Source: a virus (taxonomy: Duplodnaviria > Heunggongvirae > Uroviricota > Caudoviricetes). From it: a stretch of 64,000 nucleotides of DNA. Made by a program: the position numbers and the translations under genes. Positions within the stretch are counted from its first letter, which is position 1, and every line of letters starts with the position of its first letter. The DNA lies in IMG/VR virus record IMGVR_UViG_3300042940_001739. The stretch is one strand, 5' to 3'. Positions 23,126-63,533 of this stretch are shown here, piece after piece. Below the pieces are notes generated by a model that had not been told where the DNA came from, did not search any database, and was given only the letters and a program-made list of their open reading frames with translations.

Positions 23126-23682
23126 TGAGCAATCAGCCGCAATATAAGTATGTATATGGCCGAGGAAGAAGCTCGTTTGATCTTCCAGAGTCTGATATTC
23201 GATACGCAATGTCGAATACTAAATCAAATGCAGAAGCGGCTCGGTTTTTAAAAGTATCATTTACTACTTATAAAAAATATGCTAAGATGTATGTTGATAG
23301 AGATACTGAAAAGACTCTATATGATATGCATACAAATCAGGCAGGGGTTGGTATCACAAAAGATAGTCCTCGAGCAAGTTCAGGTCCATATGCAATTGAT
23401 GCAATATTGGAAGGCAAACATCCTGCGTATCCAACTTGGAAACTTCGCAATCGTTTGTTAGCATTAGGCATAATGCAGGAAGAATGTTGCTCGTGCGGAT
23501 ATCAGGAACGCAGGGTAACTGATGATACAGTACCATTGTTGTTAGACCACATAGATGGTGATGATACCAACCACTGCATTGATAATTTGCAAATGCTTTG
23601 TTTGAATTGTTATTATCAACAAACAGGCAATCCTTTCAAACAAGATAAAGAACAATATTGGAACTATAATTTAATGGAGTGA
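23125..23682 (+). CDS. HNH endonuclease
   Basis: DHIDGDDTNHCIDNLQMLCLNCY is an HNH motif with flanking Cys pairs. Confidence 0.65.
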   Translation: MSNQPQYKYVYGRGRSSFDLPESDIRYAMSNTKSNAEAARFLKVSFTTYKKYAKMYVDRDTEKTLYDMHTNQAGVGITKDSPRASSGPYAIDAILEGKHPAYPTWKLRNRLLALGIMQEECCSCGYQERRVTDDTVPLLLDHIDGDDTNHCIDNLQMLCLNCYYQQTGNPFKQDKEQYWNYNLME

Positions 23683-23693
23683 TATTTATTAAT

Positions 23694-24443
23694 ATGATAT
23701 CATTAAAAACATTGATTATAGAAGGACGTTATGATAGCATCGTAACCGAACTGTCTAGAAAACTTTTAAAGGTTGTAAAAGATAGTTATGCGTCTGTTCA
23801 AGATCCAAAAGGGATGTTTGCAGGACAGAAGACATACTTTGCTAGCAATGAACGTGCTCCTGATATCACTGATGATCAACAATATAAAGAATGTTATTTT
23901 GAAGAAATTAGCAATGACACGATCCCATTGGAGTTCTATGTAACACTTAAAGTTCAATGGCGCCAAGGAATGGGTGATATGATATCAGATGGCGGAGCTT
24001 ATAATGATACATCAAAGTCAGCTGAACAGCCTCCATTAATTGAAGTTATATTTGAATTAGATCCAGATCAGTATCCAAACATATTATCTGAGGTGTCAAT
24101 GCAATTGCGTGACATTCTTCGTCATGAAATTGAACATTTAACTCAATCGGGTTGGAACATCAAGATGAGTAAATGGCATCGTAATGATCAAGCACAACGA
24201 GATAAAATAACATTAGGCAAGATACCACAAGCAAAATACTATACACTACCTAAAGAAATACCAGCAATGATCCAAGGATTGTATATGCGAGCTAAAAAGA
24301 CTCGATTACCATTCAAAGATGTTGTAGATGCTAATTTACAAAAAGGTGTTGAGAATGGTGTAATAACTGCTGAGGAAAAAGAACAAATCAAAGCAGTATG
24401 GAGAAAGTACTTGCCAAGTTTAGGAATAACACAGGAATTATAA
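23694..24443 (+). CDS. Hypothetical protein with capsid-targeting-like N-terminal peptide (MISLKTLIIE) and HExxH motif
   Basis: N-terminus matches the MIxLKxL(L/I)xE family at 57.8-62 kb. HEIEH at ~aa 150. Class III motif gatatttattaat abuts the ATG. The track start (GTG 23679) is probably an artefact. Confidence 0.4.
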   Translation: MISLKTLIIEGRYDSIVTELSRKLLKVVKDSYASVQDPKGMFAGQKTYFASNERAPDITDDQQYKECYFEEISNDTIPLEFYVTLKVQWRQGMGDMISDGGAYNDTSKSAEQPPLIEVIFELDPDQYPNILSEVSMQLRDILRHEIEHLTQSGWNIKMSKWHRNDQAQRDKITLGKIPQAKYYTLPKEIPAMIQGLYMRAKKTRLPFKDVVDANLQKGVENGVITAEEKEQIKAVWRKYLPSLGITQEL

Positions 24444-50967: not shown

Positions 50968-51002
50968 AGATTAGGATCGCATTGATATTATACTTATCTT
51001 TA
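50968..51002 (+). promoter_or_regulatory. Class I bipartite promoter AGATTAGGAT-N15-CTTATCTTTA (copy 1)
   Basis: Exact boxes with 15-bp spacer. ATG of a 51-aa ORF 26 nt downstream. Confidence 0.55.
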
Positions 51003-51027
51003 TATTATTAATTAAAAAGAGAGATAT

Positions 51028-51183
51028 ATGTATAGTTTGAATTGTAGTTATTATGAGAAAGAGTTTACCAGCATCGACGAGTTGTTGGATGATGTAATGT
51101 ATTCGGGCATGGATCCGAATTATGAAATTACCCGTAACGGTGTTAGCACGGGAGAAACGTTAGCAGATTTAATTAGTTATTAA
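51028..51183 (+). CDS. Small acidic hypothetical protein (51 aa)
   Basis: ORF directly behind class I promoter copy 1; below the track's 60-aa cut-off. Confidence 0.3.
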   Translation: MYSLNCSYYEKEFTSIDELLDDVMYSGMDPNYEITRNGVSTGETLADLISY

Positions 51184-51198
51184 TATAAAAAAGAGACT

Positions 51199-51432
51199 AT
51201 GAGTTTAAGAGAAAGATTGATTGCAGTAGGATTTGTACCAGTTGACCTTAAGGCCGGCAATGTTAAGATAGGAGACAACATTGCGAATAATAATATGATA
51301 TTCGGCGAGTTGATTAAAATTACCAAGAAAGGTAATTATGTAGTTCGCTTTGATATGGACTATGCAGATGAAAAGCCGTCAAAGTTTCCACCGGAAGTGT
51401 TTGAAAGATTCTTCCTTGTAGATAAAAGATAA
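51199..51432 (+). CDS. Hypothetical small protein
   Basis: ORF only. Confidence 0.3.
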   Translation: MSLRERLIAVGFVPVDLKAGNVKIGDNIANNNMIFGELIKITKKGNYVVRFDMDYADEKPSKFPPEVFERFFLVDKR

Positions 51433-51457
51433 ACTTTTCTGAAACTTTTCTTGGAAA

Positions 51458-51492
51458 AGATTAGGATCGCATTCTAAAAATGCTTATCTTTA
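51458..51492 (+). promoter_or_regulatory. Class I bipartite promoter (copy 2) plus leader element aagcaattagggaatggtcc
   Basis: Exact boxes with 15-bp spacer. Confidence 0.55.
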
Positions 51493-51535
51493 TTATAAGC
51501 AATTAGGGAATGGTCCTTAATATAAAAAAAGAGAT

Positions 51536-51910
51536 ATGAAAAAAGAAGCAAAAGTAGAATTTGGAATTGTAATTACAAAGCCATGGAGTTCAGAGATGTA
51601 TGCTCACAATGAGCAAGTAGCAGATGTGGTTCGCGAGACGGTATTAGGAATGTGGAATGATGCAATAAATGAATTCCAAGAGGATAAGGGAGAAGAGTTT
51701 ATGTCCGATGTTGAATGGATTTTAGCTCCAGAAAAATTAGAAAACGTCCAAAGAGCTATTACATGTTACGGGTTTGGATATGGATATGATGTAGCAGCAG
51801 TATCTGAAAGAGTAATACAAGAATTAGAAGATGCTCCTTTATTCCGTTTAAAAGAGATAGCAGAAGATTTAGAGATTGAATTAGAAAAAGGGTTTGTTGG
51901 CTTTAGTTAG
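51536..51910 (+). CDS. Hypothetical acidic protein
   Basis: ORF behind class I promoter copy 2. Confidence 0.35.
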   Translation: MKKEAKVEFGIVITKPWSSEMYAHNEQVADVVRETVLGMWNDAINEFQEDKGEEFMSDVEWILAPEKLENVQRAITCYGFGYGYDVAAVSERVIQELEDAPLFRLKEIAEDLEIELEKGFVGFS

Positions 51911-51931
51911 CCAGCAAACTTTTCTGGAAAA

Positions 51932-51966
51932 AGATTAGGATCTGAACATTAAAATGCTTATCTTTA
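51932..51966 (+). promoter_or_regulatory. Class I bipartite promoter (copy 3)
   Basis: Exact boxes with 15-bp spacer. Confidence 0.55.
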
Positions 51967-51978
51967 TAAAAAAAGGCT

Positions 51979-52128
51979 ATGAAAAGATTAAAAGTAAGAA
52001 CCGTAGAGCAACAAATCAAAGAAGGTAAAATTGAGTGCATCACTGACATTAAATTGGGTTATGTTGAAATCCGCAGATGTGCAACCGGTGTGAGAGAAAC
52101 CATTAAAGTTATTCGAAACAAATATTAG
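51979..52128 (+). CDS. Small basic hypothetical protein (49 aa)
   Basis: ORF behind copy 3; below the track cut-off. Confidence 0.3.
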   Translation: MKRLKVRTVEQQIKEGKIECITDIKLGYVEIRRCATGVRETIKVIRNKY

Positions 52129-52156
52129 AAAAAGGTTGTTTCCGAACATTATAATG

Positions 52157-52166
52157 CTTATCTTTA
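52157..52166 (+). promoter_or_regulatory. Degenerate class I promoter (-7 box CTTATCTTTA retained, upstream box diverged)
   Basis: aaaaaggttgtttccgaacattataatgcttatcttta. Confidence 0.35.
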
Positions 52167-52182
52167 TAAAAAAGAAAGAGAT

Positions 52183-52362
52183 ATGAAAAGGAAATTAGAA
52201 TTGCAATTAAGAGCTGAATATAATGTATATCAGGCTAAAGCTCATCCCGAGGATCAAATGTCGTTTATGGATTATGTACAGCAATTAGGCAGATTCCATG
52301 GATTTAAGGTTAATGTAAAAACATCATGGGATTTAGATTATGTAATAACCTTTACAAAATAA
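52183..52362 (+). CDS. Small hypothetical protein (59 aa)
   Basis: ORF behind the degenerate promoter. Confidence 0.3.
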   Translation: MKRKLELQLRAEYNVYQAKAHPEDQMSFMDYVQQLGRFHGFKVNVKTSWDLDYVITFTK

Positions 52363-52439
52363 TTTAAACAAAGTTTGCAAAAAGGTTGGATCGCATTGAT
52401 ATTATCGGTATATTTAAGTATTAATTTAAAAAGAGAGAT

Positions 52440-52700
52440 ATGGAAAGAGAATTTAAGATTGATTTAGTGTTAGCAACGGAGATAGCACAGTTTTTGGAAA
52501 CATTGCTTGAGGCAGAGTTGAATGAGGAATTTGATTCAAGCCGAGCATGTACAGACACTTACCTGGACCAATTTGATCCGAATGGCTTTGTCCCGTTTAA
52601 TCAGCTAATGCAAGCGCTTATTAAAGCCGGCGTGGTAATTCCGCAAATAGCTCCGGAACAAGGCATTGGATTGGATAATTTGCAAAGACGATTCCAGTAA
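52440..52700 (+). CDS. Acidic hypothetical small protein
   Basis: Preceded by the variant promoter aaaaggttggatcgcattgatattatcgg. Confidence 0.3.
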   Translation: MEREFKIDLVLATEIAQFLETLLEAELNEEFDSSRACTDTYLDQFDPNGFVPFNQLMQALIKAGVVIPQIAPEQGIGLDNLQRRFQ

Positions 52701-52724
52701 AAAAGTTTAAAAAAAGTTGCAAAA

Positions 52725-52759
52725 AGATTAGGATTCGAAAGATAAAATGCTTATCTTTA
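52725..52759 (+). promoter_or_regulatory. Class I bipartite promoter (copy 6)
   Basis: Exact boxes with 15-bp spacer. Confidence 0.55.
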
Positions 52760-52778
52760 ATAAAATAAAAAGAGAGAT

Positions 52779-53174
52779 ATGAAAAAAGTAAATTTAGCAG
52801 AACAATTGAATGCGTTTGCATCAGGCAGAATCATTGACAGTGAAGGATCAGAAAATGATTGTTTTAACTTTTATGATTGGTTCTGCAAAGATTCATCATT
52901 AGAGCGCAAAGCAAATGCATTGTTCCCAAAGGTAAAAAAGTTTGTTGCAGCAACTCAAGTTGACATCTTGGATACATATGTGTTCTTTAAAAATAATTGT
53001 CCGATGAATGGACCATTATATGATGATTTCCGTATATGTGATGAGAACGGAGTTTTATTCACAGTAATTCCTAAATGCGGTCATACCGGCAAAGCTGAAA
53101 TATGGGGAAAGAATGATTCCGGCGTATTTGAATGCTTAAAACAAGCAGAAACATTTTCGAAACTTTTCTCCTAA
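52779..53174 (+). CDS. Hypothetical Cys-containing protein
   Basis: ORF behind copy 6. Confidence 0.35.
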   Translation: MKKVNLAEQLNAFASGRIIDSEGSENDCFNFYDWFCKDSSLERKANALFPKVKKFVAATQVDILDTYVFFKNNCPMNGPLYDDFRICDENGVLFTVIPKCGHTGKAEIWGKNDSGVFECLKQAETFSKLFS

Positions 53175-53175
53175 A

Positions 53176-53210
53176 AGATTAGGATTCGAAAGATAAAATG
53201 CTTATCTTTA
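53176..53210 (+). promoter_or_regulatory. Class I bipartite promoter (copy 7) plus leader element aagcagaaagggaaatggttcc
   Basis: Exact boxes with 15-bp spacer. Confidence 0.55.
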
Positions 53211-53255
53211 TATAAGCAGAAAGGGAAATGGTTCCCAATCATAAAAAAGAGAGAA

Positions 53256-53447
53256 ATGGCAATAGGCAAAAAAAATTCAGGAAAGTTTCAGCAAGATGCA
53301 GTAATTGGTCAATTTGCAAGAGATGCACGTAGAGCAAGAGAAATTAGTCCAATCGTTAAAGCAGCTTTAGCAGCAGGAGAGCGCAACCGAATCTACCGCG
53401 CAGAGCAAGAAGCTAAGGCTAAATTGAATCCGCGCTTCGTAAGATGA
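53256..53447 (+). CDS. Small basic hypothetical protein
   Basis: ORF behind copy 7. Confidence 0.3.
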   Translation: MAIGKKNSGKFQQDAVIGQFARDARRAREISPIVKAALAAGERNRIYRAEQEAKAKLNPRFVR

Positions 53448-53542
53448 TAATGGCGGCGATAGGTATCACGATGGCGGCGATAGTCGTAACGGGATTAGTA
53501 GCATCAATAGTATCAATAATAGATTCACGTAAATAAAGAGAG

Positions 53543-54283
53543 ATGGCAAAAAGAATTCATGTAAGCACCGGAGCTATAGTAGCAACAGCAGAGAGCACAA
53601 CGCAGTATATGCGTGAGATTAAAAAGTTAGCAACCTTGACACGAGAGCAAGAGATTGAGTTAGCAAACCAAATCCAAGCGGGAGACACACGCGCTATGAA
53701 TAAATTGGTTGAGTCTAATTTGCGATTTGCGATCCAGGTAGCTAAGCAATATCAAGGTATGGGATTGCAGTTAGAAGACCTTATTGGGTTCGCTAATGTA
53801 GGATTGTTTGAAGCCGCTGAGCGTTTCGACCCAACTAAAGGCGTCAAGTTTATTACCTTTGCAGTATGGTATATCAGAGCCGAGCTTCAGAAGGCACTCA
53901 ATGATTTGTCCCGTGTTGTAAGGATCCCATCACACCGTACGGCAACTGAGGAGTATTCAACCAAGAGTATTTCAACTCCGGTAGGCGATGATGATAACAA
54001 AGAGACTTATGCGGATCGCTTCTTAGAAGCTGAGGCAACACGATCAGGCAGAGACCGCGCGGACATGACATTTGATATCAATCGAGCATTGAGTCAATTG
54101 AAGCCTAAGCAAGAAGAAGCCATTCGTCGCAATTATGGGATCGGTATGGAGTATGCTCAGAGCATGGAGCAGATTGGTGAAGAGATGGGCATCACAAATG
54201 AGCGCGCTCGTCAATTGGTCCGTCAAGCTGAGATTGCATTAGCAGGCTTACCAGGCATCAAGCTATTGGAACAATACCTGTAA
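53543..54283 (+). CDS. Sigma-70-family RNA polymerase sigma factor (phage-encoded)
   Basis: Region 2 (LRFAIQVAKQYQGMGLQLEDLIGFANVGLFEAAERFDPTKGVKFITFAVWYIRAEL) and region 4 HTH (SMEQIGEEMGITNERARQLVRQAE). Confidence 0.7.
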   Translation: MAKRIHVSTGAIVATAESTTQYMREIKKLATLTREQEIELANQIQAGDTRAMNKLVESNLRFAIQVAKQYQGMGLQLEDLIGFANVGLFEAAERFDPTKGVKFITFAVWYIRAELQKALNDLSRVVRIPSHRTATEEYSTKSISTPVGDDDNKETYADRFLEAEATRSGRDRADMTFDINRALSQLKPKQEEAIRRNYGIGMEYAQSMEQIGEEMGITNERARQLVRQAEIALAGLPGIKLLEQYL

Positions 54284-54307
54284 CATTTCTGAAAAAAAGT
54301 TTCAAAA

Positions 54308-54342
54308 AGATTAGGATTCGAACATTATTATACTTATCTTTA
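54308..54342 (+). promoter_or_regulatory. Class I bipartite promoter (copy 8) plus leader element aagcaattagggaaaggtcc
   Basis: Exact boxes with 15-bp spacer. Confidence 0.55.
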
Positions 54343-54387
54343 TTATAAGCAATTAGGGAAAGGTCCTTAATTTAAAACCAAAGAGAG

Positions 54388-54510
54388 ATGAGAGATTTTT
54401 TAACATTAGCATCAGTAGCAGTAGGAGGAATCCTTTTAGCAGGAGGTAACGACTTAGGAATATTGTTTGTATTCCCGGGAATTATTTACACAATCAGAAC
54501 CGCAGAATGA
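54388..54510 (+). CDS. Tiny membrane protein (40 aa)
   Basis: Hydrophobic LASVAVGGILLAGG...ILFVFPGIIY; behind copy 8. Confidence 0.25.
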   Translation: MRDFLTLASVAVGGILLAGGNDLGILFVFPGIIYTIRTAE

Positions 54511-54611
54511 TACCAGAAGGATTCACACCGGAGGAGTTTAAGCGCGTAGTGACTCAAGCAACCTTAGCTGTAAGCGCATTGATATATGTTGAACTTTATA
54601 ATTAAGAGACG

Positions 54612-54758
54612 ATGAAAAGAGAGATGAAGCCGTTAGAAGAAAAGATCAAAGCATTGAGATCAATCATGGAGTATTGGGAGTGTTTCTTCCAAGATGATGA
54701 AGTAGGCCAAGCATTAGCTGAGGTTGAAGCAGAATTAGACAAGTTCCGATTCAAGTAA
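54612..54758 (+). CDS. Small hypothetical protein (48 aa)
   Basis: ORF only. Confidence 0.2.
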   Translation: MKREMKPLEEKIKALRSIMEYWECFFQDDEVGQALAEVEAELDKFRFK

Positions 54759-54782
54759 AAAAGTTTCAAAAAAGTTCCAAAA

Positions 54783-54817
54783 AGATTAGGATCCTATCAT
54801 TATTAACCTTATCTTTA
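54783..54817 (+). promoter_or_regulatory. Class I bipartite promoter (copy 9)
   Basis: Exact boxes with 15-bp spacer. Confidence 0.55.
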
Positions 54818-54838
54818 ATAAAATAAAAAGAGAAAGAT

Positions 54839-55051
54839 ATGTTAAAAGACGCAATCGCATTATTAAGTCAGTTCGGATTAGTTGATGGTAACACATTACC
54901 AGACTCGACGCCAGGCACACAGTATCAATTTAGAAGTTGTTCTCCGAACCTAATAGTACCAGCACCAGGTATGAAAACAGTTATATCAGGCCTTTTAAAG
55001 GATCATGGGTACACGGTTAAAGCAATCGGAACAATGTTAAAATTAGTTTAA
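54839..55051 (+). CDS. Hypothetical small protein
   Basis: ORF behind copy 9. Confidence 0.3.
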   Translation: MLKDAIALLSQFGLVDGNTLPDSTPGTQYQFRSCSPNLIVPAPGMKTVISGLLKDHGYTVKAIGTMLKLV

Positions 55052-55076
55052 AAAAAGTTTAAAAAAAGTTACCAAA

Positions 55077-55111
55077 AGATTAGGATCGCATCATTATTAT
55101 CCTTATCTTTA
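55077..55111 (+). promoter_or_regulatory. Class I bipartite promoter (copy 10) plus leader element aaggaagttagggaatagtccc
   Basis: Exact boxes with 15-bp spacer. Confidence 0.55.
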
Positions 55112-55165
55112 TTATAAGGAAGTTAGGGAATAGTCCCACAGTTTAAAAACCAAAAAAGAGAGATT

Positions 55166-55582
55166 ATGAAAAAAATTGAATTGATTGCAAAGTTAGAAGG
55201 CGCTAAAGAATTGACGTCAGTAGTATCGATCGACTTAGTATTGACAGCATTAAGTATGTTGGAAGACGAAGCTCCAAAAGGCTTCAGCCTCAAAGGCGCG
55301 CAGTTTGACTTGTTAATGGACAAGATCCAAAGTGCCGTAGACCAAATGGACCGACGCGAGTTGATAGATAAAGACTCCGCGGAGTTTGAGTTAGATTGGA
55401 ATAATGTAGTTAGCTTAAGTGATGTATCAGTCGACTTTGATTATGTATACAATAGCATCCGCGACGAGTTGGAGGAGCTTGTTGAAGACGAAGAAGAAGA
55501 TGAGGAAGCTGAAGCAGACGAAGAAGGTCCTGTTTATCCTGAGGAGTTAGATGAGTTAGCTGAATTAGACATAGAAGAATAA
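55166..55582 (+). CDS. Hypothetical protein with poly-acidic C-terminus
   Basis: EELVEDEEEDEEAEADEEG tail. Confidence 0.35.
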   Translation: MKKIELIAKLEGAKELTSVVSIDLVLTALSMLEDEAPKGFSLKGAQFDLLMDKIQSAVDQMDRRELIDKDSAEFELDWNNVVSLSDVSVDFDYVYNSIRDELEELVEDEEEDEEAEADEEGPVYPEELDELAELDIEE

Positions 55583-55602
55583 GATATATCTCTCAGTCCA
55601 AA

Positions 55603-55624
55603 GCCCTAGCAGAAATGTTAGGGC
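55603..55624 (+). other. Conserved hairpin gccctagc-agaaat-gttagggc (third copy, no T-run)
   Basis: Identical to the terminator hairpin at 39441. Confidence 0.5.
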
Positions 55625-55647
55625 ATTAGGACGTAAAAAAAGAGATA

Positions 55648-55797
55648 TGATAAGAAGCAAAAAAGAAATCCAGGACGCAAATGCATTATTAATAGCAATG
55701 CACGTATTCATTGTAGCCAATAACATGAAGCATCTATTCGGCGATGCACTCAATACAATTGGAGCCGCAATTGCTGAAATCCACCAGGAAAAATAAT
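55648..55797 (+). CDS. Small hypothetical protein (49 aa)
   Basis: ORF only. Confidence 0.2.
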
Positions 55798-55815
55798 TGA
55801 AACTTTTCTTGAAAA

Positions 55816-55850
55816 AGATTAGGTTAATTGAAATAAAATGCTTATCTTTA
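55816..55850 (+). promoter_or_regulatory. Class I bipartite promoter (copy 11, upstream box AGATTAGGTT) plus leader element aagcagaaagggaaaggccc
   Basis: 15-bp spacer conserved. Confidence 0.5.
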
Positions 55851-55895
55851 TATAAGCAGAAAGGGAAAGGCCCAAGACGCATTTATAATTAAATC

Positions 55896-56852
55896 ATGAG
55901 AGAGATGATGAACGTATTTGAACCAGTAAGAGTAAAAGGTAAATTAGTAGCAAAAAATGTTAAGTCAGGAGAGATTGCAGGAAAAGATTTGATCCGACAC
56001 ATTCAATTGCTTAATGCAGAAAAGAATCGTCAGTTGTTAATGGTTGCTCCAAACGGCAGAGTAACAAGACTTGATAGTACCACAACAAGCTCAACACCAT
56101 CAGCACCTAGCAAGATGTCATTCATGTCAGTAGTTGAGACTAGAGATCCTGAGACAATGTTTGGCAACTTGGAGCGTCTGACTAAAATGGTAGGGCGAGG
56201 CATTCAACCATCATTGGTCATCACAGGTATGGCAGGTGTCGGCAAGACGCACCTTGTTAAAGAGACACTAAAGCAAATGGGCTTGAAGGAGTCATATGAC
56301 TTTGAGCATTTCAAAGGTAAAGCAACCGCGGCAGGTTTGTATATGACATTGTATGCTAACTCAGACAAGATTGTAGTATTAGATGATTGTGATTCAGTAT
56401 TCAAAGATGATGATGCAGTCAATATCCTTAAGGCGGCACTTGACTCATATGACACTCGTCAGATCTCATATATCTCAACGAAGCCTTTGAAAGATGAGTT
56501 TGGCGAACCGATCCCATCACGCTTTGAGTTCACAGGTAAGATCATTTTTATCTCAAACATCAACCAAAGCAAATTAGATGAGGCGATCCGTAGCCGTAGC
56601 TTTGTAGCAGACATTAGCATGAACACTGAGCAAATGTTTACAAGAATGGAGCAGTTGTTACCTACCATGGAGTCACGTATTCCATTAGCGGCAAAGCAAC
56701 AAGCATTAGATGTTATGAAGGCGCTCCACGCTAAGTATGACGGAGTAGACATCAACCTAAGAAGTTTTATCAAAGCATCACGAATTGCGGCGATGGGCTT
56801 CCCGGCAGATGAAGTAGAGAATTTAATTGCAGAGCAGATCATCGCGGCATAA
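55896..56852 (+). CDS. P-loop NTPase (AAA-like ATPase)
   Basis: Walker A VITGMAGVGKTHL and Walker B KIVVLDDCD. Confidence 0.5.
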   Translation: MREMMNVFEPVRVKGKLVAKNVKSGEIAGKDLIRHIQLLNAEKNRQLLMVAPNGRVTRLDSTTTSSTPSAPSKMSFMSVVETRDPETMFGNLERLTKMVGRGIQPSLVITGMAGVGKTHLVKETLKQMGLKESYDFEHFKGKATAAGLYMTLYANSDKIVVLDDCDSVFKDDDAVNILKAALDSYDTRQISYISTKPLKDEFGEPIPSRFEFTGKIIFISNINQSKLDEAIRSRSFVADISMNTEQMFTRMEQLLPTMESRIPLAAKQQALDVMKALHAKYDGVDINLRSFIKASRIAAMGFPADEVENLIAEQIIAA

Positions 56853-56928
56853 GACATATCATATCTCTCAATATGAAAGAGGCCGGCATCGAAAGGTGTC
56901 GGTTTCTACTGTAAAATAAATCAAACAA

Positions 56929-56963
56929 ATCGGCAAAAAGATTAGGATCCTATCCCGATAAAC
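56929..56963 (+). promoter_or_regulatory. Class I bipartite promoter (copy 12) plus leader element tagcaattagggaaaggccc
   Basis: Exact boxes with 15-bp spacer. Confidence 0.55.
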
Positions 56964-57609: not shown

Positions 57610-57815
57610 TAGAACACCCCCATCTAGATAGTGGTGCTAATATATGTTTTTCTAGCGCGGGAAGATTTTTTGCTGAGGGAGAAGACTCTTTATTGTATAT
57701 GGCGGTGCCATAGAGCTATTATTAATATATAGTACGTTTCGGAGCCTCCCTACGCTAACGCTTCAGTCAGCACCTCACGTAGCCACCAAATTAACGATCT
57801 CCGATATTTATTAAT

Positions 57816-58310
57816 ATGATAAAGATGAAACACATCCTGCAGGAAATTGGAGAAGCTACGTTAGAGCCATATGCATATCGCATCAACTTCACAATAAACC
57901 AAGCACACTTTCGCACAGATGCAGCAACCCAATACGAAGTTGACTTTCGTACGGACGTCCAGGGTGTAATGGAAATACACTTTGCGGTAATAGATGATTC
58001 CGGAAGACCAGATCAATACACAGAAACAAATGAAGGGGTAACTTTGCGTGTTATGTCAACCATCACATCTATCATAAAAAAAGCAGTAGCGCGGTTATCC
58101 CCTCGCGAGATTGTAATATCAGCTGCTAAATCAGATCAACGTCGTATGCGTTTATATCGTCAATATATTGCTAAGCATTTAACGGGCTATGACGAAGTGG
58201 CATCTGATGCGGCTTGGTCTACATATAAAAAGACTCCTAAATTTGATTTAATGGGAATATGGAAGCGAAGCACACAATATGATGCTACGGGAATCAAGGA
58301 TGCACAATGA
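57816..58310 (+). CDS. CTS-family protein 1 (MIKMKHILQE...), hypothetical
   Basis: N-terminal MIxxKxILxE. C-terminal QYDATGIKDAQ shared with the next gene. Class III motif abuts the ATG. Confidence 0.45.
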   Translation: MIKMKHILQEIGEATLEPYAYRINFTINQAHFRTDAATQYEVDFRTDVQGVMEIHFAVIDDSGRPDQYTETNEGVTLRVMSTITSIIKKAVARLSPREIVISAAKSDQRRMRLYRQYIAKHLTGYDEVASDAAWSTYKKTPKFDLMGIWKRSTQYDATGIKDAQ

Positions 58311-58747
58311 TACGATTAGCATCTTTATTAGCGGAATCGGTCAGCATGCTCACAGCAACACAACGCATTGAGTCATTGCCACGTGGCACCATATTTTCAG
58401 ATGCTAAAAATATAACAAGCATTTTTGCGACTAGTAGATATGCATGGAATCAAGTAGCGGCTGCTGTCGACACCAACGCTGCGGATGGTCGAATGCGATC
58501 GGTAAGTATTCAAGACATACACATAACACAACCAAACATTCAAAGCAGCAAAGTCGTACAGATTCTGCGCAGATTACCCGAGTTGCCCGCTATACGCGTC
58601 GCGCAATTTGCAGATGGTTCGTTAGCTATCGCGGATGGCCATCATCGTCTTGTAGCCAATTGGGCATTAGGAAACCAACGCGTCCAAGTAATAATCGTGC
58701 CAGCATCATCACAATATGATTGGACGGGTATAAAGGATAAACCATGA
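58307..58747 (+). CDS. CTS-family protein 2 (MIRLASLLAE...) with ParB/Srx-like nuclease motif
   Basis: LAIADGHHRLVANWA (DGHHR motif of the ParB-like nuclease domain). C-terminal QYDWTGIKDKP. Confidence 0.45.
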   Translation: MIRLASLLAESVSMLTATQRIESLPRGTIFSDAKNITSIFATSRYAWNQVAAAVDTNAADGRMRSVSIQDIHITQPNIQSSKVVQILRRLPELPAIRVAQFADGSLAIADGHHRLVANWALGNQRVQVIIVPASSQYDWTGIKDKP

Positions 58748-59358
58748 TTAGATTAAAGGATTTATTAGCGGAAATCTCTCTGGGGAGCGTGACACCGTAC
58801 GCGACCCAATTTGTATGGCAGGACAATTGGGGCGACGCAGAATCATTCGAAGCAAAGTTTGAGGCCGATTCCCAGCCCATCACCATGACCATGACCAAAT
58901 GGAAACACAGTCAGCACGGAGACACCGGAGAATGGCAATTTGCTTATTTTGTTCGTAGCAAAGACGGTGAAGGTTGGACAACCACTACTCGCCAATCAGC
59001 GGCTCAAGGCGAATTAAACACATTTCGTCTTTTCAAGACAATAGGTGAAGCAATTCGCGATTTTGCCAATACGCAGCCCGGAGTGGATGTGATTGATGTT
59101 AGCGGAAGCGACACATATGACGCCAAGGGCGCACAAAAAACTAGAATATACACGGAATTGTTGCAAAGCAACTCTGACTTAGCAGCATTCAAAGTAGTGC
59201 AAGGGGCAACTCGTTTATTCCTGGTTCGCAAGACAGCAGGAGCGCAGCCTGATGCTACTGGTATTGAAGATGCTGATGATTATTGGACACCCGATGGAAG
59301 TGAGGATGCCACTCAATGGCGTGCTAATCGCGATGGCTCACAAACTGCATCATTTTAA
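58744..59358 (+). CDS. CTS-family protein 3 (MIRLKDLLAE...), hypothetical
   Basis: Shared N-terminus. C-terminal region contains DATGIEDAD. Confidence 0.45.
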   Translation: MIRLKDLLAEISLGSVTPYATQFVWQDNWGDAESFEAKFEADSQPITMTMTKWKHSQHGDTGEWQFAYFVRSKDGEGWTTTTRQSAAQGELNTFRLFKTIGEAIRDFANTQPGVDVIDVSGSDTYDAKGAQKTRIYTELLQSNSDLAAFKVVQGATRLFLVRKTAGAQPDATGIEDADDYWTPDGSEDATQWRANRDGSQTASF

Positions 59359-59370
59359 AACAAGGAAATT

Positions 59371-59901
59371 ATGATACGTTTAAAACGATTGCTTCATGAA
59401 TGGACGGGAGAATCATGGACATCTTGTCGACAATGGGCTTCACAACGCGGCAAGTACTTGGGCAGTGAAGAGGGCGTGTATGTAGGCGTCGAACTAACTA
59501 CTACACAATTTCAACTTACCTATGTAGGACCTGGGGTTGGAATTAGTCTTGCCCATGCAAAGGGTGGCACGGGCGATACATTGCATCAACTTTTCAATGT
59601 ATTGATTTGTGAAATTAATCCATGGTTAGCTGACAACAAGATTCGTCCTAACATTGCTGACATCACAACTAGATGCTCTGCACGCGATGCGGACTTTGAA
59701 TTGGTTATACAAGTACCACTTGAGCCGTCGGATCGCCCATGGCAAATGAATCATCGAGGTGGATGGGGACATGATCCTGGTGTAGGAGCAGTTAAATCTG
59801 CTTCGCCTGATACACCTGATCGTGAAATTGCTACTGAAATCACCATGATACCGAATGGTGGCGGGAAAATCACAACGCACTTTGCTGTATTCCCAATGTA
59901 A
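59371..59901 (+). CDS. CTS-family protein 4 (MIRLKRLLHE...), hypothetical
   Basis: Shared N-terminus. Confidence 0.45.
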   Translation: MIRLKRLLHEWTGESWTSCRQWASQRGKYLGSEEGVYVGVELTTTQFQLTYVGPGVGISLAHAKGGTGDTLHQLFNVLICEINPWLADNKIRPNIADITTRCSARDADFELVIQVPLEPSDRPWQMNHRGGWGHDPGVGAVKSASPDTPDREIATEITMIPNGGGKITTHFAVFPM

Positions 59902-59981
59902 ACGGATGTAGCCCTGAAAGGGGTTACGAACGTACTATGTTTTACAACGTACTATATTTATTTTTAAATTGCAAGGAAACA

Positions 59982-60506
59982 ATGATCAAACTAAAATCAA
60001 TACTTAAAGAAGGTTTTGCGTGGGAACGTGAACCTGGTAAGCCTTTACCTACCTTAGAACAAACAACTGCGGCATACGCTGCCAAAATGGGTGAACAAAG
60101 CGCTGAGCAACCTCTCTCTAATCCAATGGAAACGCCACTAAAAGAATCTGATGATATCTTTGATGAAATTGCTGATGAATTAGGAATCTCTTCAGAAGAA
60201 TTTGATTCAGCTTTAAATAAATCAATGGCTGAGCTAGATATCATTGAAAAAATATATATGAGTGATCATTATACAAAAGCAGAAGCAATGAGTATGATTG
60301 CTGATATGCTTGATGTTGATATCAATGAAGCTGCTGATGGTGTTAAACCTGATTACATTGATGCTGATGGCGATGGTGATGAAGAAGAGTCAATGAAACA
60401 AGCATTTGTTGACAAAGAAGATATGAACGAGTCATTTGCACGTCGTTTAATGGGTAACCTTAAAGGGTCTGAACATATTTTAACGGAAACGTTTAAACGT
60501 AAATAA
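59982..60506 (+). CDS. CTS-family protein 5 (MIKLKSILKE...), acidic
   Basis: Shared N-terminus. The track start of 59937 is probably too early (aaggaaacaATG favoured). Confidence 0.45.
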   Translation: MIKLKSILKEGFAWEREPGKPLPTLEQTTAAYAAKMGEQSAEQPLSNPMETPLKESDDIFDEIADELGISSEEFDSALNKSMAELDIIEKIYMSDHYTKAEAMSMIADMLDVDINEAADGVKPDYIDADGDGDEEESMKQAFVDKEDMNESFARRLMGNLKGSEHILTETFKRK

Positions 60507-60536
60507 AGAGCGTCTGCTACCTTAGACGGTATAGTT

Positions 60537-60569
60537 AAGAGCTTGGGGTTTCGACCTCGAGCTTTTTTT
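60537..60569 (+). terminator. Rho-independent terminator (gagcttggggt-ttcg-acctcgagc + T7)
   Basis: Hairpin plus T7. Confidence 0.5.
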
Positions 60570-60661
60570 GTGTCCCATATTTATTAATATAATAAGTTAT
60601 TTCTTTTAAGTTGGGAGGCCAACAATGTTATTAGTTTAGTTTTAATTTAAAGGAAATAGCT

Positions 60662-60811
60662 ATGGCAGCAAAAAAAGTAAACAGCAATAGTGCAAAGATG
60701 CATATCTCGAAACCGAAGGTTAAAAGACCTGGAGTTCATGCTAAAACTAAAACAAGTAGAAGCAAGAATGCAACTAATTATACTAAGGCATATGTAAGTC
60801 AAGGAAAATGA
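60662..60811 (+). CDS. Small very basic protein (49 aa, Lys/Arg/Ser/Thr-rich)
   Basis: MAAKKVNSNSAKMHISKPKVKRPGVHAKTKTSRSKNATNYTKAYVSQGK. ATGA overlap with the next gene. Below the track cut-off. Confidence 0.35.
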   Translation: MAAKKVNSNSAKMHISKPKVKRPGVHAKTKTSRSKNATNYTKAYVSQGK

Positions 60812-62187
60812 TAAAATTAAGATCTATATTAAACGAAATTATTACTGAGAAAACATCAGATAAGAAACTTCGAGTATTGTTTGTTGGTGATTCACAAACT
60901 GCAGCAGATTGGAGTTATGCTCGTATATTAGTACGATCTAAACAAATTGATGGAACGATTGTTGCTAAAAATGGAGCTTCAACATCTGCTATTTTAACAA
61001 TGCTTCAAAATAGCTTATCTGATAAGTATGATATTGTATCAATAATGGGTGGTGGTAATGATGGCGCTTCAAAATCGCCAGTAAATGCTATTAGAAATTT
61101 TGAAACAATGTTTGATATGGTACGTAACGTTGGAGCAAAATTAGTTGTTATAACTAATCCAACAAAAGATTTTGTTACTCCTGGAGATGCTTATTATAGA
61201 AAAGGCGGATACCCAGCTAACGATAAAATATCAGATTGGCTTCAAACTCAAACGTCTGCAGATGTTATAATTGATACTGGAGATTTCACGGAAATTGATT
61301 TTACAAAAGATCACGTTCATTTAGATTCGGACGCTCACAAAAAAATTGCAAGTCAATGGAAACGTCAAGTATTAGATTTAATTGATGTGGATTCAACCAA
61401 AGAAATTAAACCAGAAGACACTGCATTATTGCAAGTAGGCGATAAAGGTCCTGATGTTTTTAAAATGCAATCTGCTTTAATTAAATTAGGATATTCAGTT
61501 GGCCGCGAAGGTGTTGATGGTATTTTCGGCCCTCATACAAAAAGTGGATTAATTAAATTCCAACATGACATTACACAAGACCCAACCGGGAAATTAGATA
61601 CAATAACAAAAAATATTTTATTTAAAAAAGCTGGAGAAATTGGAACTGACACATCTGCGGGCGAAGAAGACACTGATATGTCATTAGCTTCATTGATTGG
61701 AATAGGATCAATATCAGGTGCAAATTATTCAGATCCAATATTAAAGCAAGCCGCAGCTTTGTTGGCTGGTTTTGAAGGATTCCGTTCTGAAGCTTATTGG
61801 GATGTTAATAATTGGAGAATTGGATACGGAAGTAGCACGGTAACTGATGCATCTGGTAACATTGAACATTTATCTGCAGATAGATCAGAAAAACCTGATA
61901 TAACTGTTACTAAGGAAGATGGAATTCGAGATTTATCACGTAGGCTGTCTGACGAGTTTATTCCGAAAGTATTACAACATGCAGACGGATTAAATAAAGG
62001 TACTGTTTCAGCATTAGTATCAATTGCATATAATTATGGTAGTTTACCTAGCAATGTTATCAGTGCAATGAAAACAAAAAATATAAATGATATTGCACAA
62101 GCAGTATTACAATTAAAATCACATAACGGCGGCATCAATGCAAAACGAAGACAAAAAGAAGCTGCTTACATATTAAATAGTAAATAA
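60808..62187 (+). CDS. CTS-family protein 6: multidomain SGNH/GDSL hydrolase + peptidoglycan-binding domain + GH24 (T4-lysozyme-like) muramidase
   Basis: MIKLRSILNE N-terminus. GDSL block I VLFVGDSQT and block V DHVHLDSDAH. PG_binding_1 repeat (LQVGDKGPDVFKMQSALIKLGYSVGREGVDGIFGPHTKSGLIKFQ). Lysozyme motif GFEGFRSEAYWDVNNWRIGYGS. Confidence 0.55.
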   Translation: MIKLRSILNEIITEKTSDKKLRVLFVGDSQTAADWSYARILVRSKQIDGTIVAKNGASTSAILTMLQNSLSDKYDIVSIMGGGNDGASKSPVNAIRNFETMFDMVRNVGAKLVVITNPTKDFVTPGDAYYRKGGYPANDKISDWLQTQTSADVIIDTGDFTEIDFTKDHVHLDSDAHKKIASQWKRQVLDLIDVDSTKEIKPEDTALLQVGDKGPDVFKMQSALIKLGYSVGREGVDGIFGPHTKSGLIKFQHDITQDPTGKLDTITKNILFKKAGEIGTDTSAGEEDTDMSLASLIGIGSISGANYSDPILKQAAALLAGFEGFRSEAYWDVNNWRIGYGSSTVTDASGNIEHLSADRSEKPDITVTKEDGIRDLSRRLSDEFIPKVLQHADGLNKGTVSALVSIAYNYGSLPSNVISAMKTKNINDIAQAVLQLKSHNGGINAKRRQKEAAYILNSK

Positions 62188-62196
62188 AGGTAGAAA

Positions 62197-62571
62197 ATGT
62201 TTGAAAAATTAATATCAACACTAATGGCATCACGTGATCAAGCACATGTTTTTCATTGGCAAACAACTGGTGCAGGATCTTTTGCTGCACATAAAGCATT
62301 AGGTAAATATTATGATGCAATACCTGATATGATTGATGCATTAGTAGAAGCATATCAAGGTAAATATGGTATCCTTAAAGGATTTGCGCCGGCGGAAAAA
62401 TTTGATGAATATAGTCAAGCTACAGCGCTTAAGTATTTTAAAGGATTAGCCACATTCATTGATCGTGCTTACGATAAACTAGATCCTAAAGACACAAACA
62501 TTATCAACCAATTAGATACATTCAAAGATTTAATATATACAACAATATATAAATTAGAAAATTTACAGTAA
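62197..62571 (+). CDS. Hypothetical protein
   Basis: ORF only. Confidence 0.3.
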   Translation: MFEKLISTLMASRDQAHVFHWQTTGAGSFAAHKALGKYYDAIPDMIDALVEAYQGKYGILKGFAPAEKFDEYSQATALKYFKGLATFIDRAYDKLDPKDTNIINQLDTFKDLIYTTIYKLENLQ

Positions 62572-63347: not shown

Positions 63348-63533
63348 ATGACATCACAAGAAATCTATGAAGCAATGGAAGCACATTGGTTAACATTTAA
63401 AGAAAACCATGATCGCTTTCAAGAAAAACAAGTTAAAGCTGCAGGCGTTAGAGCTCGCAAATCAATTAATGAGATGAAAAAATTAGTTAGCAAATATCGT
63501 TCAACTCAATTAGCAGAAGCAAAAGCAGCATAA
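63348..63533 (+). CDS. Hypothetical small protein
   Basis: Class III motif gatatttattaatat 25 nt upstream. Confidence 0.3.
   Translation: MTSQEIYEAMEAHWLTFKENHDRFQEKQVKAAGVRARKSINEMKKLVSKYRSTQLAEAKAA

What the first reader, a model, noticed from the sequence alone, without database searches (positions are those of the whole stretch)
57816..62187. Cassette of six paralogous genes sharing an N-terminal MI(R/K)LKxLLxE peptide that looks like a T4-style capsid-targeting / prohead-protease signal
Six consecutive + strand genes (57816, 58307, 58744, 59371, 59982, 60808) begin with near-identical decapeptides: MIKMKHILQE, MIRLASLLAE, MIRLKDLLAE, MIRLKRLLHE, MIKLKSILKE, MIKLRSILNE. A seventh copy is at 23694 (MISLKTLIIE). 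Downstream the proteins are unrelated: a ParB-like nuclease motif, an acidic protein, a multidomain lysozyme. In T4 the internal proteins (IPI-III, Alt) carry a ~10-aa N-terminal capsid-targeting sequence ending in (L/I)xE, which gp21 prohead protease removes; those proteins are packaged and ejected with the DNA and include anti-restriction factors. The strictly conserved L-(L/I)-x-E at residues 7-10 fits that consensus. I infer this is a locus of head-packaged, co-injected effector proteins, a likely anti-defence / host-takeover arsenal.
Basis: partly seen in the sequence, partly recalled or inferred. Interest (0 to 1): 0.85.

Follow-up and report, generated by a model that had tools for sequence, protein, structure and literature searches.

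The report
Capsid-address tags on phage cargo genes
A freshwater T4-like phage puts the same ten-residue N-terminal tag on many otherwise unrelated proteins, and the tag has the layout of the phage T4 signal that loads proteins into the head for injection, so the injected cargo of uncultured phages may be readable from sequence alone.

Summary
Six adjacent + strand genes (57816-62187) and one at 23694 start with M-I-(K/R/S)-(L/M)-x-x-(L/I)-(L/I)-x-E. These are the only seven matches in all six frames, against 0.0001 expected. The bodies are not paralogs; they share only the tag.

The window comes from a roughly 164 kb freshwater T4-like myophage of Bacteroidota. Relatives that carry the same cassette also encode, on the same contigs, a T4-type portal, a gp23-like capsid protein and a gp21-type prohead protease (Pfam Peptidase_S77, E=6e-32).

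- **Layout:** the tag has the register of the T4 capsid targeting sequences, with hydrophobic residues at 4, 7 and 8 and Glu at 10. Conservation stops at E10.
- **Spread:** across relatives it heads 264 distinct proteins in at least 80 unrelated families, grouped in loci that vary between strains.
- **Timing:** it sits behind the promoter-like motif found before the structural genes.
- **Tag swapping:** one cargo domain (ParB/Srx fold) carries a different, lineage-specific tag in other phage lineages, including a T4 IP-like MKSFKEFVTE.

I conclude that this is a T4-style capsid-targeting and protease-cleavage leader (confidence about 0.7). Packaging, cleavage and any anti-defence role are inferred, not shown. 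It is a new member of a known kind.

The parts
57804..57813 (+). Late-type promoter-like motif ATATTTATTA, 12 nt before the start of the first cassette gene
   Evidence: The window has 12 copies of ATATTTATWW, all on the + strand, against 4.7 expected on both strands. The same motif lies 21-44 nt upstream of baseplate, tail and portal genes in relatives.
57816..58310 (+). Cargo gene 1 (164 aa): leader MIKMKHILQE plus a DUF6934 body
   Evidence: PF22028, 2e-07, residues 40-126; an identical protein sits on a 164,031-nt contig.
58307..58747 (+). Cargo gene 2 (146 aa): leader MIRLASLLAE, a ParB/sulfiredoxin-fold body (residues about 14-135) and a disordered tail YDWTGIKDKP
   Evidence: 53 homolog clusters, with alignments that start at residue 5-29. 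AlphaFold2 pLDDT 93; sulfiredoxin, Noc and ParB N-domain matches, probability 1.00.
58744..59358 (+). Cargo gene 3 (204 aa, pI 4.6): leader MIRLKDLLAE, body of unknown fold
   Evidence: no family hit. Orthologs in L008-L010 keep the leader.
59371..59901 (+). Cargo gene 4 (176 aa): leader MIRLKRLLHE, body unknown
   Evidence: Orthologs appear in many strains.
59954..59963 (+). Late-type promoter-like motif, 28 nt before the start of gene 5
59982..60506 (+). Cargo gene 5 (174 aa, pI 4.3, very acidic): leader MIKLKSILKE plus the conserved stretch GFAWEREPGKPLPTL. It is the most widespread member of the cassette.
   Evidence: (family 4, 15 loci).
60577..60586 (+). Late-type promoter-like motif before the 49-aa gene and gene 6
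60662..60811 (+). 49-aa very basic protein (pI 11) without a leader. Its stop overlaps the start of gene 6, and it is conserved in nearly all strains.
60808..62187 (+). Cargo gene 6 (459 aa): leader MIKLRSILNE, then a GDSL esterase, a peptidoglycan-binding domain and a phage lysozyme
   Evidence: PF13472, PF01471, PF00959. A separate GH19 endolysin and a holin lie at 9795-11418, so this enzyme is not needed for lysis.
23682..24443 (+). Possible seventh member (249 aa, HEIEH motif): late-type motif at 23682-23691, leader-like MISLKTLIIE
   Evidence: (homolog of residues 697-907 of immuto gp088).
55896..56852 (+). Conserved upstream flank: AAA-type ATPase, used as the anchor for comparing strains
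62197..62571 (+). Conserved downstream flank: DUF5856 protein

Best explanation
The decapeptide M-I-(K/R)-L-(K/R)-x-(L/I)-L-x-E is a capsid-targeting propeptide of a distant T4-like phage.

**Proposed mechanism:**
1. Late in infection the tagged proteins are made together with the head proteins.
2. The short amphipathic tag docks them onto the scaffolding core of the prohead.
3. The gp21-type serine protease (Peptidase_S77) then cuts after the Glu at position 10. In a longer form of the tag it may cut again after a second L-x-E about 12 residues on.
4. The mature proteins stay inside the head with the DNA and enter the host cell at the next infection.

The cassette at 57816-62187 is the counterpart of the T4 internal-protein loci, a fast-changing set of cargo genes that share only the address tag.

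**Shown here:**
- the tag and its restriction to N-termini;
- the break in conservation after E10;
- the unrelated bodies;
- the variability of the locus between strains;
- the S77 protease and T4-type head genes in the lineage;
- the late-type promoter motif;
- lineage-specific tags on a shared cargo domain.

**Inferred:** docking to the core, cleavage, packaging and injection.
For: 1. **Lineage.**
- 27 of 104 window ORFs match Flavobacterium phage immuto at 35-79% identity. Immuto has a gp20 portal, a prohead serine protease and a gp23 capsid protein.
- A gp44/gp62-type clamp loader lies just upstream of the window.
- Walking along the 169 kb relative IMGVR_UViG_3300031857_000018 gave terminase, portal (Portal_T4, 2.7e-66), protease (Peptidase_S77, 6e-32, with GELDHP and SSRG aligned to T4 gp21) and capsid protein.
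- Three contigs carry both a leader cassette and the protease.

2. **Register.** T4 IPII/IPIII MKTYQEFIAE, Alt MELITELFDE and gp24 MAKINELLRE, read from the T4 record, have hydrophobic residues at 4, 7 and 8 and Glu at 10, as the window leader does. In T4, residues 4 and 7 target and residues 8 and 10 govern processing (PMC9026906).

3. **Module boundary.** Information content is 3-4 bits at positions 1-5, 7, 8 and 10, and below 1 bit from position 11 on.

4. **N-terminal only.** Of 342 pattern hits in the lineage, 332 are at ORF starts and only 3 are truly internal.

5. **Cargo diversity.** The 264 distinct proteins fall into at least 80 BLAST-unrelated families. In the cassette interval 28 of 42 ORFs have the leader, against 2 of 152 other ORFs in the same loci.

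6. **Tag swapping.** The ParB/Srx cargo of gene 2 is found with three tags:
- MKKSQLISLVRE in an immuto-like contig, next to another MKKSQL protein;
- MKSFKEFVTE, next to a MITFKSFFEE protein;
- MIKLKNLLKE in the window's own lineage.
In immuto the MKKSQ tag is also on gp072, a 73-aa protein between portal and protease.

7. **Timing.** The motif ATATTTATWW precedes genes 1, 5, 6 and 23694, the endolysin-holin genes, and the structural genes of relatives. The early-type motif AGATTAGGAT stops at 56948.

8. **Cargo types.** Lysozyme/GDSL, VanY, LysM, GNAT, SET and a 374-aa membrane protein resemble known ejected proteins such as T4 Alt and SPN3US gp47 (PMC5694885).
Against: - There are no virion proteomics for this phage or any close relative, so neither packaging nor cleavage is shown.
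- The protease and head genes were found in relatives whose flanking genes are about 75-80% identical. They were not found on the window, nor on a contig proven to be the same strain.
- No protein in the head module carries the exact leader. The nearest is MNKLKKLYRD on the 171-aa protein after the protease, at 4.9 bits against 31 for a true leader.
- The promoter motif is assigned to late genes by position only, and its count is only modestly above chance (12 against 4.7; 1 of 100 shuffles reaches 12).
- Position conservation was measured on sequences chosen with a pattern, which inflates the values at the constrained positions.
- The AlphaFold2 model of gene 2 runs the leader into one long helix (residues 2-22) rather than a detached peptide.
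Confidence: 0.7

Rival explanations
1. The shared N-terminus is an uncleaved amphipathic helix that sends the proteins somewhere other than the head. Candidates are the inner membrane, the tail or baseplate during assembly, or another phage machine such as the neighbouring AAA ATPase or the phage GroEL.
For: - The leaders have a moderate helical hydrophobic moment (0.18-0.60).
- The gene 2 model predicts one continuous helix over residues 2-22.
- A conserved AAA gene flanks the cassette, and the phage encodes GroEL.
- Several tagged proteins act on the cell wall or have membrane segments.
Against: - This reading does not explain the invariant Glu at the exact end of the conserved block, or the match of register to T4 sequences that are known to be cleaved.
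- Mean hydrophobicity is about 0, with charges at positions 3, 5 and 10, so the tag is a poor membrane anchor.
- The tag changes with the phage lineage on the same cargo. That fits a partner encoded by the phage head module, and in immuto the tag is on a protein between portal and protease.
Confidence: 0.12
2. The conserved 5' ends act at the nucleic-acid level, either as a translation-initiation or regulatory element, or as short homology that lets cassettes recombine between co-infecting phages. On this reading the peptide is a by-product.
For: - The locus shuffles its gene content between strains.
- The first codons are A/T-rich: ATA, AAA and TTA dominate.
- Genes 1-3 overlap by ATGA, and genes 1 and 2 carry a shared motif just before their stops.
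Against: - Synonymous codons vary freely at the conserved residues. Leu appears as TTA, CTA, CTT, TTG, CTC and CTG; Arg as CGA, CGT, AGA, CGG and CGC.
- No pair of leaders in the window shares more than about 23 of 30 bases (read), which is too little for efficient homologous exchange.
- The same logic holds with quite different peptides in other lineages.
Confidence: 0.06
3. The tag is a capsid-targeting signal, but it is not removed, or it is cut elsewhere. For example, the cut may fall only at a downstream L-x-E such as TLE in gene 1 or NLSE in the extended form.
For: - In T4, Asp at position 10 blocks cleavage but not targeting (PMC9026906), so the two functions can be separated.
- Some relatives have Glu at position 9 (MIRLKTLLEQ).
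- The extended form has a second L-x-E 12 residues further on.
Against: Glu10 is the most conserved residue after Met1. It sits exactly where conservation ends, as expected for the residue just before a cut by a Glu-specific S77 protease.
Confidence: 0.1

Closest known systems
Phage T4 capsid targeting sequences on internal proteins IPI, IPII, IPIII and on Alt (Mullaney and Black 1996, as reviewed in PMC9026906 and PMC3012670)
   Same: - A 10-19 residue N-terminal propeptide is the only thing shared by otherwise unrelated proteins.
- Hydrophobic residues sit at positions 4, 7 and 8, and Glu at position 10.
- The phage has a gp21-type S77 protease.
- The loci differ between related phages.
- The T4 ipII and ipIII genes lie next to the lysozyme gene e, as the cassette here lies next to a lysozyme-domain gene.
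   Different: - The residues differ: MIRLKxLLxE against MKTYQEFIAE, which scores -7 bits on the leader matrix.
- The host phylum differs (Bacteroidota).
- The scale is far larger: at least 80 cargo families in one lineage, against a handful in T4.
- The cargo includes a 459-aa three-domain cell-wall hydrolase.
- Nothing has been tested experimentally.
T4 gp24 vertex protein propeptide MAKINELLRE
   Same: It is the closest T4 sequence to the window leader: K3, I/L4, L7, L8 and E10 are in the same places, and it scores +1.3 bits against a median of -18.8. PMC5694885 names gp24 among the T4 head proteins with 10-20-residue N-terminal propeptides.
   Different: gp24 is a shell protein, not an injected cargo. 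No gp24-like paralog with the leader was seen in the head module of the relatives.
Propeptides of ejection proteins in giant phages phiKZ, 201phi2-1 and SPN3US (PMC5694885)
   Same: - A T4-related prohead protease trims many inner-head proteins after Glu.
- Paralogs gp53 and gp54 share an identical N-terminus while their bodies have diverged.
- Some ejection proteins have membrane segments.
   Different: The giant-phage propeptides are mostly longer than 100 residues, and the cleavage motif is (S/A/G)-x-E. Here the tag is 10 residues (19-22 in the long form) with (L/I)-x-E.
Analogous leaders in Flavobacterium phage immuto (found here, not described in the papers I could search)
   Same: - Four proteins start MKKSQLxxIIKE-like, one of them between portal and protease. 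Two start MKKQILSEQFxRMQxLAGIITES, which resembles the extended form LLAENMxRFGTKNLxE.
- Immuto is the nearest cultured relative.
   Different: The tag sequence differs, and immuto has fewer tagged genes. No strict window-type leader occurs in immuto.

Membership tests
T4-type capsid-targeting-sequence / internal-protein system | The phage builds a T4-type prohead with a gp21-family protease (Peptidase_S77), a gp20 portal and a gp23 capsid protein | tested here: met
   In relatives: Peptidase_S77 6e-32 and Portal_T4 2.7e-66, and a capsid protein 56% identical to immuto gp23. Three contigs carry both cassette and protease. Not seen on the window itself. gp21 belongs to the T4 core gene set (PMC2993671).
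T4-type capsid-targeting-sequence / internal-protein system | A short (10-19 aa) N-terminal leader with hydrophobic residues at 4, 7 and 8, ending in (L/I)-x-E | tested here: met
   with the T4 sequences. The roles of positions 4, 7, 8 and 10 are from PMC9026906.
T4-type capsid-targeting-sequence / internal-protein system | The leader is the only similarity between otherwise unrelated proteins | tested here: met
   No significant body-to-body BLAST hits in the window. There are 80 unrelated families in the lineage. Homologs of the gene 2 body align only from residue 5-29.
T4-type capsid-targeting-sequence / internal-protein system | The loci are variable between closely related phages | tested here: met
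   The cassette holds 3 to 8 ORFs of at least 80 aa, of different families, between conserved flanks.
T4-type capsid-targeting-sequence / internal-protein system | The proteins are made while proheads assemble (late expression) | tested here: inconclusive
   The motif shared with structural and lysis genes precedes genes 1, 5, 6 and 23694. It is assigned to late genes by position only; there are no transcript data.
T4-type capsid-targeting-sequence / internal-protein system | The proteins are present in purified virions with the leader removed | not testable with these tools
   No proteome exists for this lineage. INPHARED holds no close relative.
T4-type capsid-targeting-sequence / internal-protein system | The leader alone suffices to package a foreign protein | not testable with these tools
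   This needs a cultured phage and a reporter fusion.
Sec / Tat / lipoprotein signal peptide | A hydrophobic core of about 7-15 uncharged residues after a basic N-region | tested here: not met
   Charged residues sit at positions 3, 5 and 10, and mean hydrophobicity is about 0. True signal peptides in the same genomes look different, for example MKKLLLVLAIAINSVTYSQ.
Giant-phage (phiKZ-type) long propeptides | Propeptides of about 100 residues or more, with an (S/A/G)-x-E cleavage motif | tested here: not met
   Conservation ends at residue 10. The residue two before the Glu is L or I.
ParB/sulfiredoxin fold (body of gene 2) | The ParB N-domain/Srx fold with a conserved nucleotide-binding core | tested here: met
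   AlphaFold2 pLDDT 93, pTM 0.85. Foldseek matches to sulfiredoxin, Noc and ParB at probability 1.00, E=2e-4. TQ and DGHHR are invariant or nearly so in 27 homologs. The catalytic activity is unknown.

The most novel reading that the evidence does not exclude
The tag system works as a sequence-readable cargo manifest. In this abundant freshwater phage lineage at least 80 unrelated protein families are addressed to the capsid, through a two-tier leader: a 10-residue form, and a 19-22-residue form that adds NMxRFGTKNLxE. They include cell-wall hydrolases, a GNAT acetyltransferase, a SET-domain protein, ParB/Srx-fold proteins and membrane proteins. Different T4-like lineages put their own tags on shared cargo domains. 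If so, distant T4-like phages inject large arsenals of proteins that turn over quickly, and these could be listed for uncultured phages from genome sequence alone.
Probability: 0.5. Interest if true: 0.75.

Novelty: new member of a known kind. Interest (0 to 1): 0.6.

Why it matters
Proteins injected with phage DNA act before any phage gene is expressed. That makes them prime candidates for counter-defence and host takeover, and in phage T4 such a leader already serves as a tool for packaging foreign proteins into capsids.

They are normally found only by proteomics of cultured phages. A recognisable address tag, together with the rule that each lineage has its own tag ending in (L/I)-x-E, would let them be predicted in metagenomes.

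Here that approach yields hundreds of candidates from an abundant, uncultured group of freshwater Bacteroidota phages.

Tried and rejected
- **Cellulophaga phage phi4:1 as a relative with virion proteomics.** Its ligase is 52% identical, but only 3 window ORFs match it, so it is not a relative and has no such leader.
- **Near relatives in INPHARED.** There are none at the DNA level except thyA. There are no protein hits for the extended leader, the 374-aa tagged protein or P0248.
- **Profile search with the extended leader.** The 44-aa version returned only short fragments of 77 aa or less, so it said little about the bodies.
- **Finding this phage's own capsid gene among immuto capsid-protein homologs by matching contig lengths.** The family is too large (8000 candidates, all of the 120 listed 74% identical or more) and no length matched.
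- **Homolog search with gene 1.** It returned only 5 close copies.
- **Lysozyme gene as an IMG/VR anchor.** No relatives were found.
- **Exact DNA search in IMG/VR.** No match.
- **Literature search for the extended motif.** No paper was found.
- **DNA ligase start (MTIKQIFDE; T4 MILKILNEIA) as a counter-example on a housekeeping enzyme.** Rejected: it scores -24 to -31 bits on the leader matrix.
- **Secretion signal.** Considered and rejected, because the tag has no hydrophobic core.

Full report
**Observation.** A pattern scan of all six frames finds only these seven. From the amino-acid composition of the window's ORFs, 0.0001 such starts are expected among 104 genes, and 5000 shuffles of the N-termini produced none. 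The copies use different synonymous codons at the conserved residues, so selection acts on the peptide. With the leader removed the bodies show no significant similarity to one another, so 'paralogous' is not correct. Pfam and PHROGs recognise only three bodies: DUF6934 in gene 1, a weak ParB-like signal in gene 2, and a GDSL esterase, peptidoglycan-binding domain and phage lysozyme in gene 6.

**What the window is.** Nearly all sizeable ORFs are on the + strand and G+C is about 35%. The content is that of a large phage: GroEL, thymidylate synthase, RNA and DNA ligases, glycosyltransferases, a GH19 endolysin and a holin. A 640-aa protein carries a type IX secretion sorting domain, which points to a Bacteroidota host. 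Just upstream of the window lie gp44/gp62-type clamp-loader genes. No phage in INPHARED is close at the DNA level. Cellulophaga phage phi4:1 shares only three genes. The nearest isolate is Flavobacterium phage immuto, which matches 27 of 104 ORFs at 35-79% identity with local synteny. Immuto has a T4-type portal, a 'prohead core protein serine protease' and a gp23 capsid protein. An identical copy of gene 1's product lies on a 164,031-nt contig, so the genome is about 164 kb.

**Is there a prohead protease?** The window has no head genes, so I looked in relatives.
- A scan of JGI metagenomes with the UvdE gene that lies 10 kb downstream of the cassette returned 80 freshwater loci.
- One belongs to a 169,328-nt contig that is also in IMG/VR. 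Its gene order around the cassette flank is the same as in the window.
- Walking along it showed synteny with the immuto structural module. It reached terminase, portal (Portal_T4, 2.7e-66), a 208-aa protease (Peptidase_S77, 6e-32, 111 bits against a cut-off of 27), a scaffold-like protein and a capsid protein 56% identical to that of immuto.
- The protease aligns with T4 gp21 through the GELxHP and SSRG motifs.
- Thirty-three loci of the lineage carry it.
- Three IMG/VR contigs hold both a leader cassette next to the AAA flank and the protease: 3300042453_002472, 3300042879_002524 and 3300042465_007464.
- gp21 belongs to the core gene set of T4 relatives (PMC2993671).

The lineage therefore has the enzyme the hypothesis needs. 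Its presence in the exact genome of the window is inferred.

**The leader compared with T4.** I read the T4 sequences from the T4 record:
- IPII and IPIII: MKTYQEFIAE
- IPI: MKTFKEFTST...ITE
- Alt: MELITELFDE
- gp24: MAKINELLRE
- gp22: MLKEQLIAE
- gp21: MNEPQLLIE

Like the window leader, the ten-residue ones have hydrophobic residues at 4, 7 and 8 and Glu at 10. According to the review PMC9026906:
- the propeptides are 10-19 residues long, and the first 10 residues of IPIII suffice for packaging;
- targeting depends mainly on residues 4 and 7, and processing on residues 8 and 10;
- Asp at position 10 blocks cleavage but not targeting.

PMC3012670 describes the T-even internal proteins as a diverse set that shares only the targeting sequence. 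In 138 distinct leaders of the lineage, positions 1-5, 7, 8 and 10 carry 2.8-4.3 bits, positions 6 and 9 about 1 bit, and every position from 11 on less than 1 bit. The values at the constrained positions are inflated, because the sequences were chosen with a pattern. The sharp end at E10 is not an effect of that choice.

**Spread of the leader.** Related contigs show that the interval between the conserved AAA gene and the DUF5856 gene holds three to eight ORFs of at least 80 aa, in different combinations. Most of them start with the leader or with a nine-residue variant, MIRLKxLLE. In that interval 28 of 42 ORFs of at least 80 aa have it, against 2 of 152 other ORFs in the same loci.

The leader also heads several proteins elsewhere in these genomes:
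- a conserved 178-aa protein between the tail-fibre genes and the primase gene, seen in 74 loci;
- a 374-400-aa membrane protein;
- a second variable cluster on the minus strand, 6-10 kb beyond the window end. There the tag is usually extended to xLLAENMxRFGTKNLxE, with a second L-x-E. This recalls the two sites of T4 IPII, FIAE10 and KLE19.

Homologous bodies can carry either the short or the long form. Over all sampled loci, 332 of 342 pattern hits lie at ORF starts and only 3 are truly internal. The 264 distinct tagged proteins fall into at least 80 BLAST-unrelated families. Pfam recognises only a few of them: VanY, LysM, PG_binding_1, lysozyme, GNAT, SET and DUF6934. The extended motif also occurs in 85 metagenome protein fragments. 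I found it in no paper.

**Tag swapping.** This is the most telling comparative result.
- A full HMMER search with gene 2 found 53 homolog clusters. The alignments begin at residue 5-29 of the query, so the leader lies outside nearly all of the matches, and the domain often sits inside much larger proteins.
- The AlphaFold2 model (pLDDT 93) has a ParB/sulfiredoxin fold, and its tail YDWTGIKDKP is disordered.
- Stand-alone homologs carry other N-termini of the same style.
  - P0215 starts MKKSQLISLVRE. It lies in an immuto-like contig next to a second MKKSQL protein.
  - P0248 starts MKSFKEFVTE, close to T4 IPIII. It lies next to a gene that starts MITFKSFFEE.
  - P0256 and P0259 start MIKLKNLLKE.
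- Immuto itself has four MKKSQ proteins, one of them (gp072, 73 aa) between portal and protease, where T4 has the core proteins gp67 and gp68.

One cargo domain with a tag that follows the phage lineage is what an address label read by the phage's own head machinery predicts.

**Timing.** The intergenic regions fall into two classes.
- Nine exact copies of AGATTAGGAT, each followed by CTTATCTTTAT, precede the small genes between 50.9 and 57.0 kb and then stop.
- From 57.8 kb on, the motif is ATATTTATWW. The window has 12 copies, all on the + strand, against 4.7 expected on both strands. They lie 12-85 nt upstream of genes 1, 5 and 6 (with its 49-aa partner), 23694, the endolysin-holin genes and a few others.
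- The same motif precedes baseplate, tail and portal genes in the relatives.

I take it to be the late promoter. This rests on position, not on transcript data.

**Rivals.**
- *Secretion signal.* Excluded by composition.
- *Uncleaved helix aimed at another destination.* Possible, but it does not explain the Glu boundary or the T4 register.
- *DNA- or RNA-level element.* Unlikely, given the synonymous variation.
T4 gp24 scores +1.3 and the median ORF -18.8.

Weak points remain:
- there are no proteomics;
- no head-module protein has the exact tag, and the 171-aa protein after the protease, MNKLKKLYRDFFGLTE, is only a distant second;
- the seventh copy at 23694 aligns with an internal segment, KKVMAE|GRYD, of a 907-aa immuto protein. 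That segment may be an internal cleavage site or a coincidence.

**Verdict.** The cassette is best read as the counterpart of the T4 internal-protein loci in a distant freshwater T4-like phage of Bacteroidota. It is a set of late-made cargo proteins addressed to the prohead by a ten-residue leader and released by an S77 protease. I put this at about 0.7. The kind is known from T4, so I rate it a new member of a known kind. What is unusual is the size and turnover of the tagged repertoire, the two-tier leader, and the evidence for lineage-specific tags on shared cargo. An anti-defence role is plausible for some members but untested, and the identifiable cargo points at least as much to cell-wall breaching at entry.

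Noticed in passing
window 50273-50509: Ten copies of YATTTTTAG on the + strand within 240 bases (16 in the window against 3.9 expected). This is an iteron-like cluster upstream of the gene at 50366, possibly an origin or a regulator-binding array.
   Followed up: partly
window 50968-56948: Nine exact copies of AGATTAGGAT on the + strand, each followed about 20 nt later by CTTATCTTTAT and then a small gene. They look like an early promoter class, and they end just before the cassette.
   Followed up: partly
window 58283-58303, 58720-58740, 59251-59271: Genes 1, 2 and 3, whose bodies are unrelated, and their orthologs share the C-terminal motif D(A/W)TG(I/V)(K/E)D. In gene 2 it lies beyond the conserved domain and is disordered in the model. 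It may be a second processing or targeting signal; T4 Alt is also cut at its C-terminus. Unexplained.
   Followed up: partly
window 60662-60811: A 49-aa protein with pI 11 and no acidic residues. Its stop overlaps the start of the lysozyme-domain gene, and it is conserved in nearly all strains. It has no leader and its function is unknown.
   Followed up: no
window 23694-24443 and L017 7131-9854: The 249-aa protein with an HEIEH motif is a stand-alone version of the last domain of the 907-aa multidomain protein gp088 of immuto. The alignment starts exactly at LIIE|GRYD against VMAE|GRYD. An HNH endonuclease gene (23125-23682) lies directly upstream.
   Followed up: partly
L011 11285-15764 (about 67.8-72.3 kb on the window's scale); L008-L010 14-20 kb: A second variable region: minus-strand genes with the extended leader LLAENMxRFGTKNLxE, interleaved with + strand genes that have classic signal peptides. 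Some of the latter are CAP-domain proteins.
   Followed up: partly
L264 20064-20309: A ribosomal protein S21 homolog (PF01165, 7e-10) sits inside the head module of the relatives, between the protease and the scaffold gene.
   Followed up: no
L264 19539-20054: The 171-aa protein just after the protease starts MNKLKKLYRDFFGLTE. It is the runner-up to the leader matrix among 70 ORFs and has Asp at position 10, the change that in T4 allows targeting without cleavage.
   Followed up: partly
window 63348-63533: A 61-aa Hc1 (chlamydial histone-like) protein behind two late-type promoter motifs. It may be a DNA-condensing protein made late.
   Followed up: no
window 11415-13337: A 640-aa protein with a cohesin domain and a type IX secretion C-terminal sorting domain. 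This indicates a Bacteroidota host and a phage-encoded secreted or surface protein.
   Followed up: no
window 45521-46909: The DNA ligase is 52% identical to that of Cellulophaga phage phi4:1, although the two phages otherwise share only two other genes, which suggests gene exchange. Its N-terminus MTIKQIFDEIAAE resembles the leader in style only.
   Followed up: yes
L104 19225-19761 and about 70 other loci: A 178-aa tagged protein (MIRLKQLLxE...GDNGRVYEIDGEDKVFKIT) is conserved across the lineage between the tail-fibre genes and the primase gene. It has no Pfam match. The glycine-rich stretch resembles a nucleotide-binding loop.
   Followed up: partly
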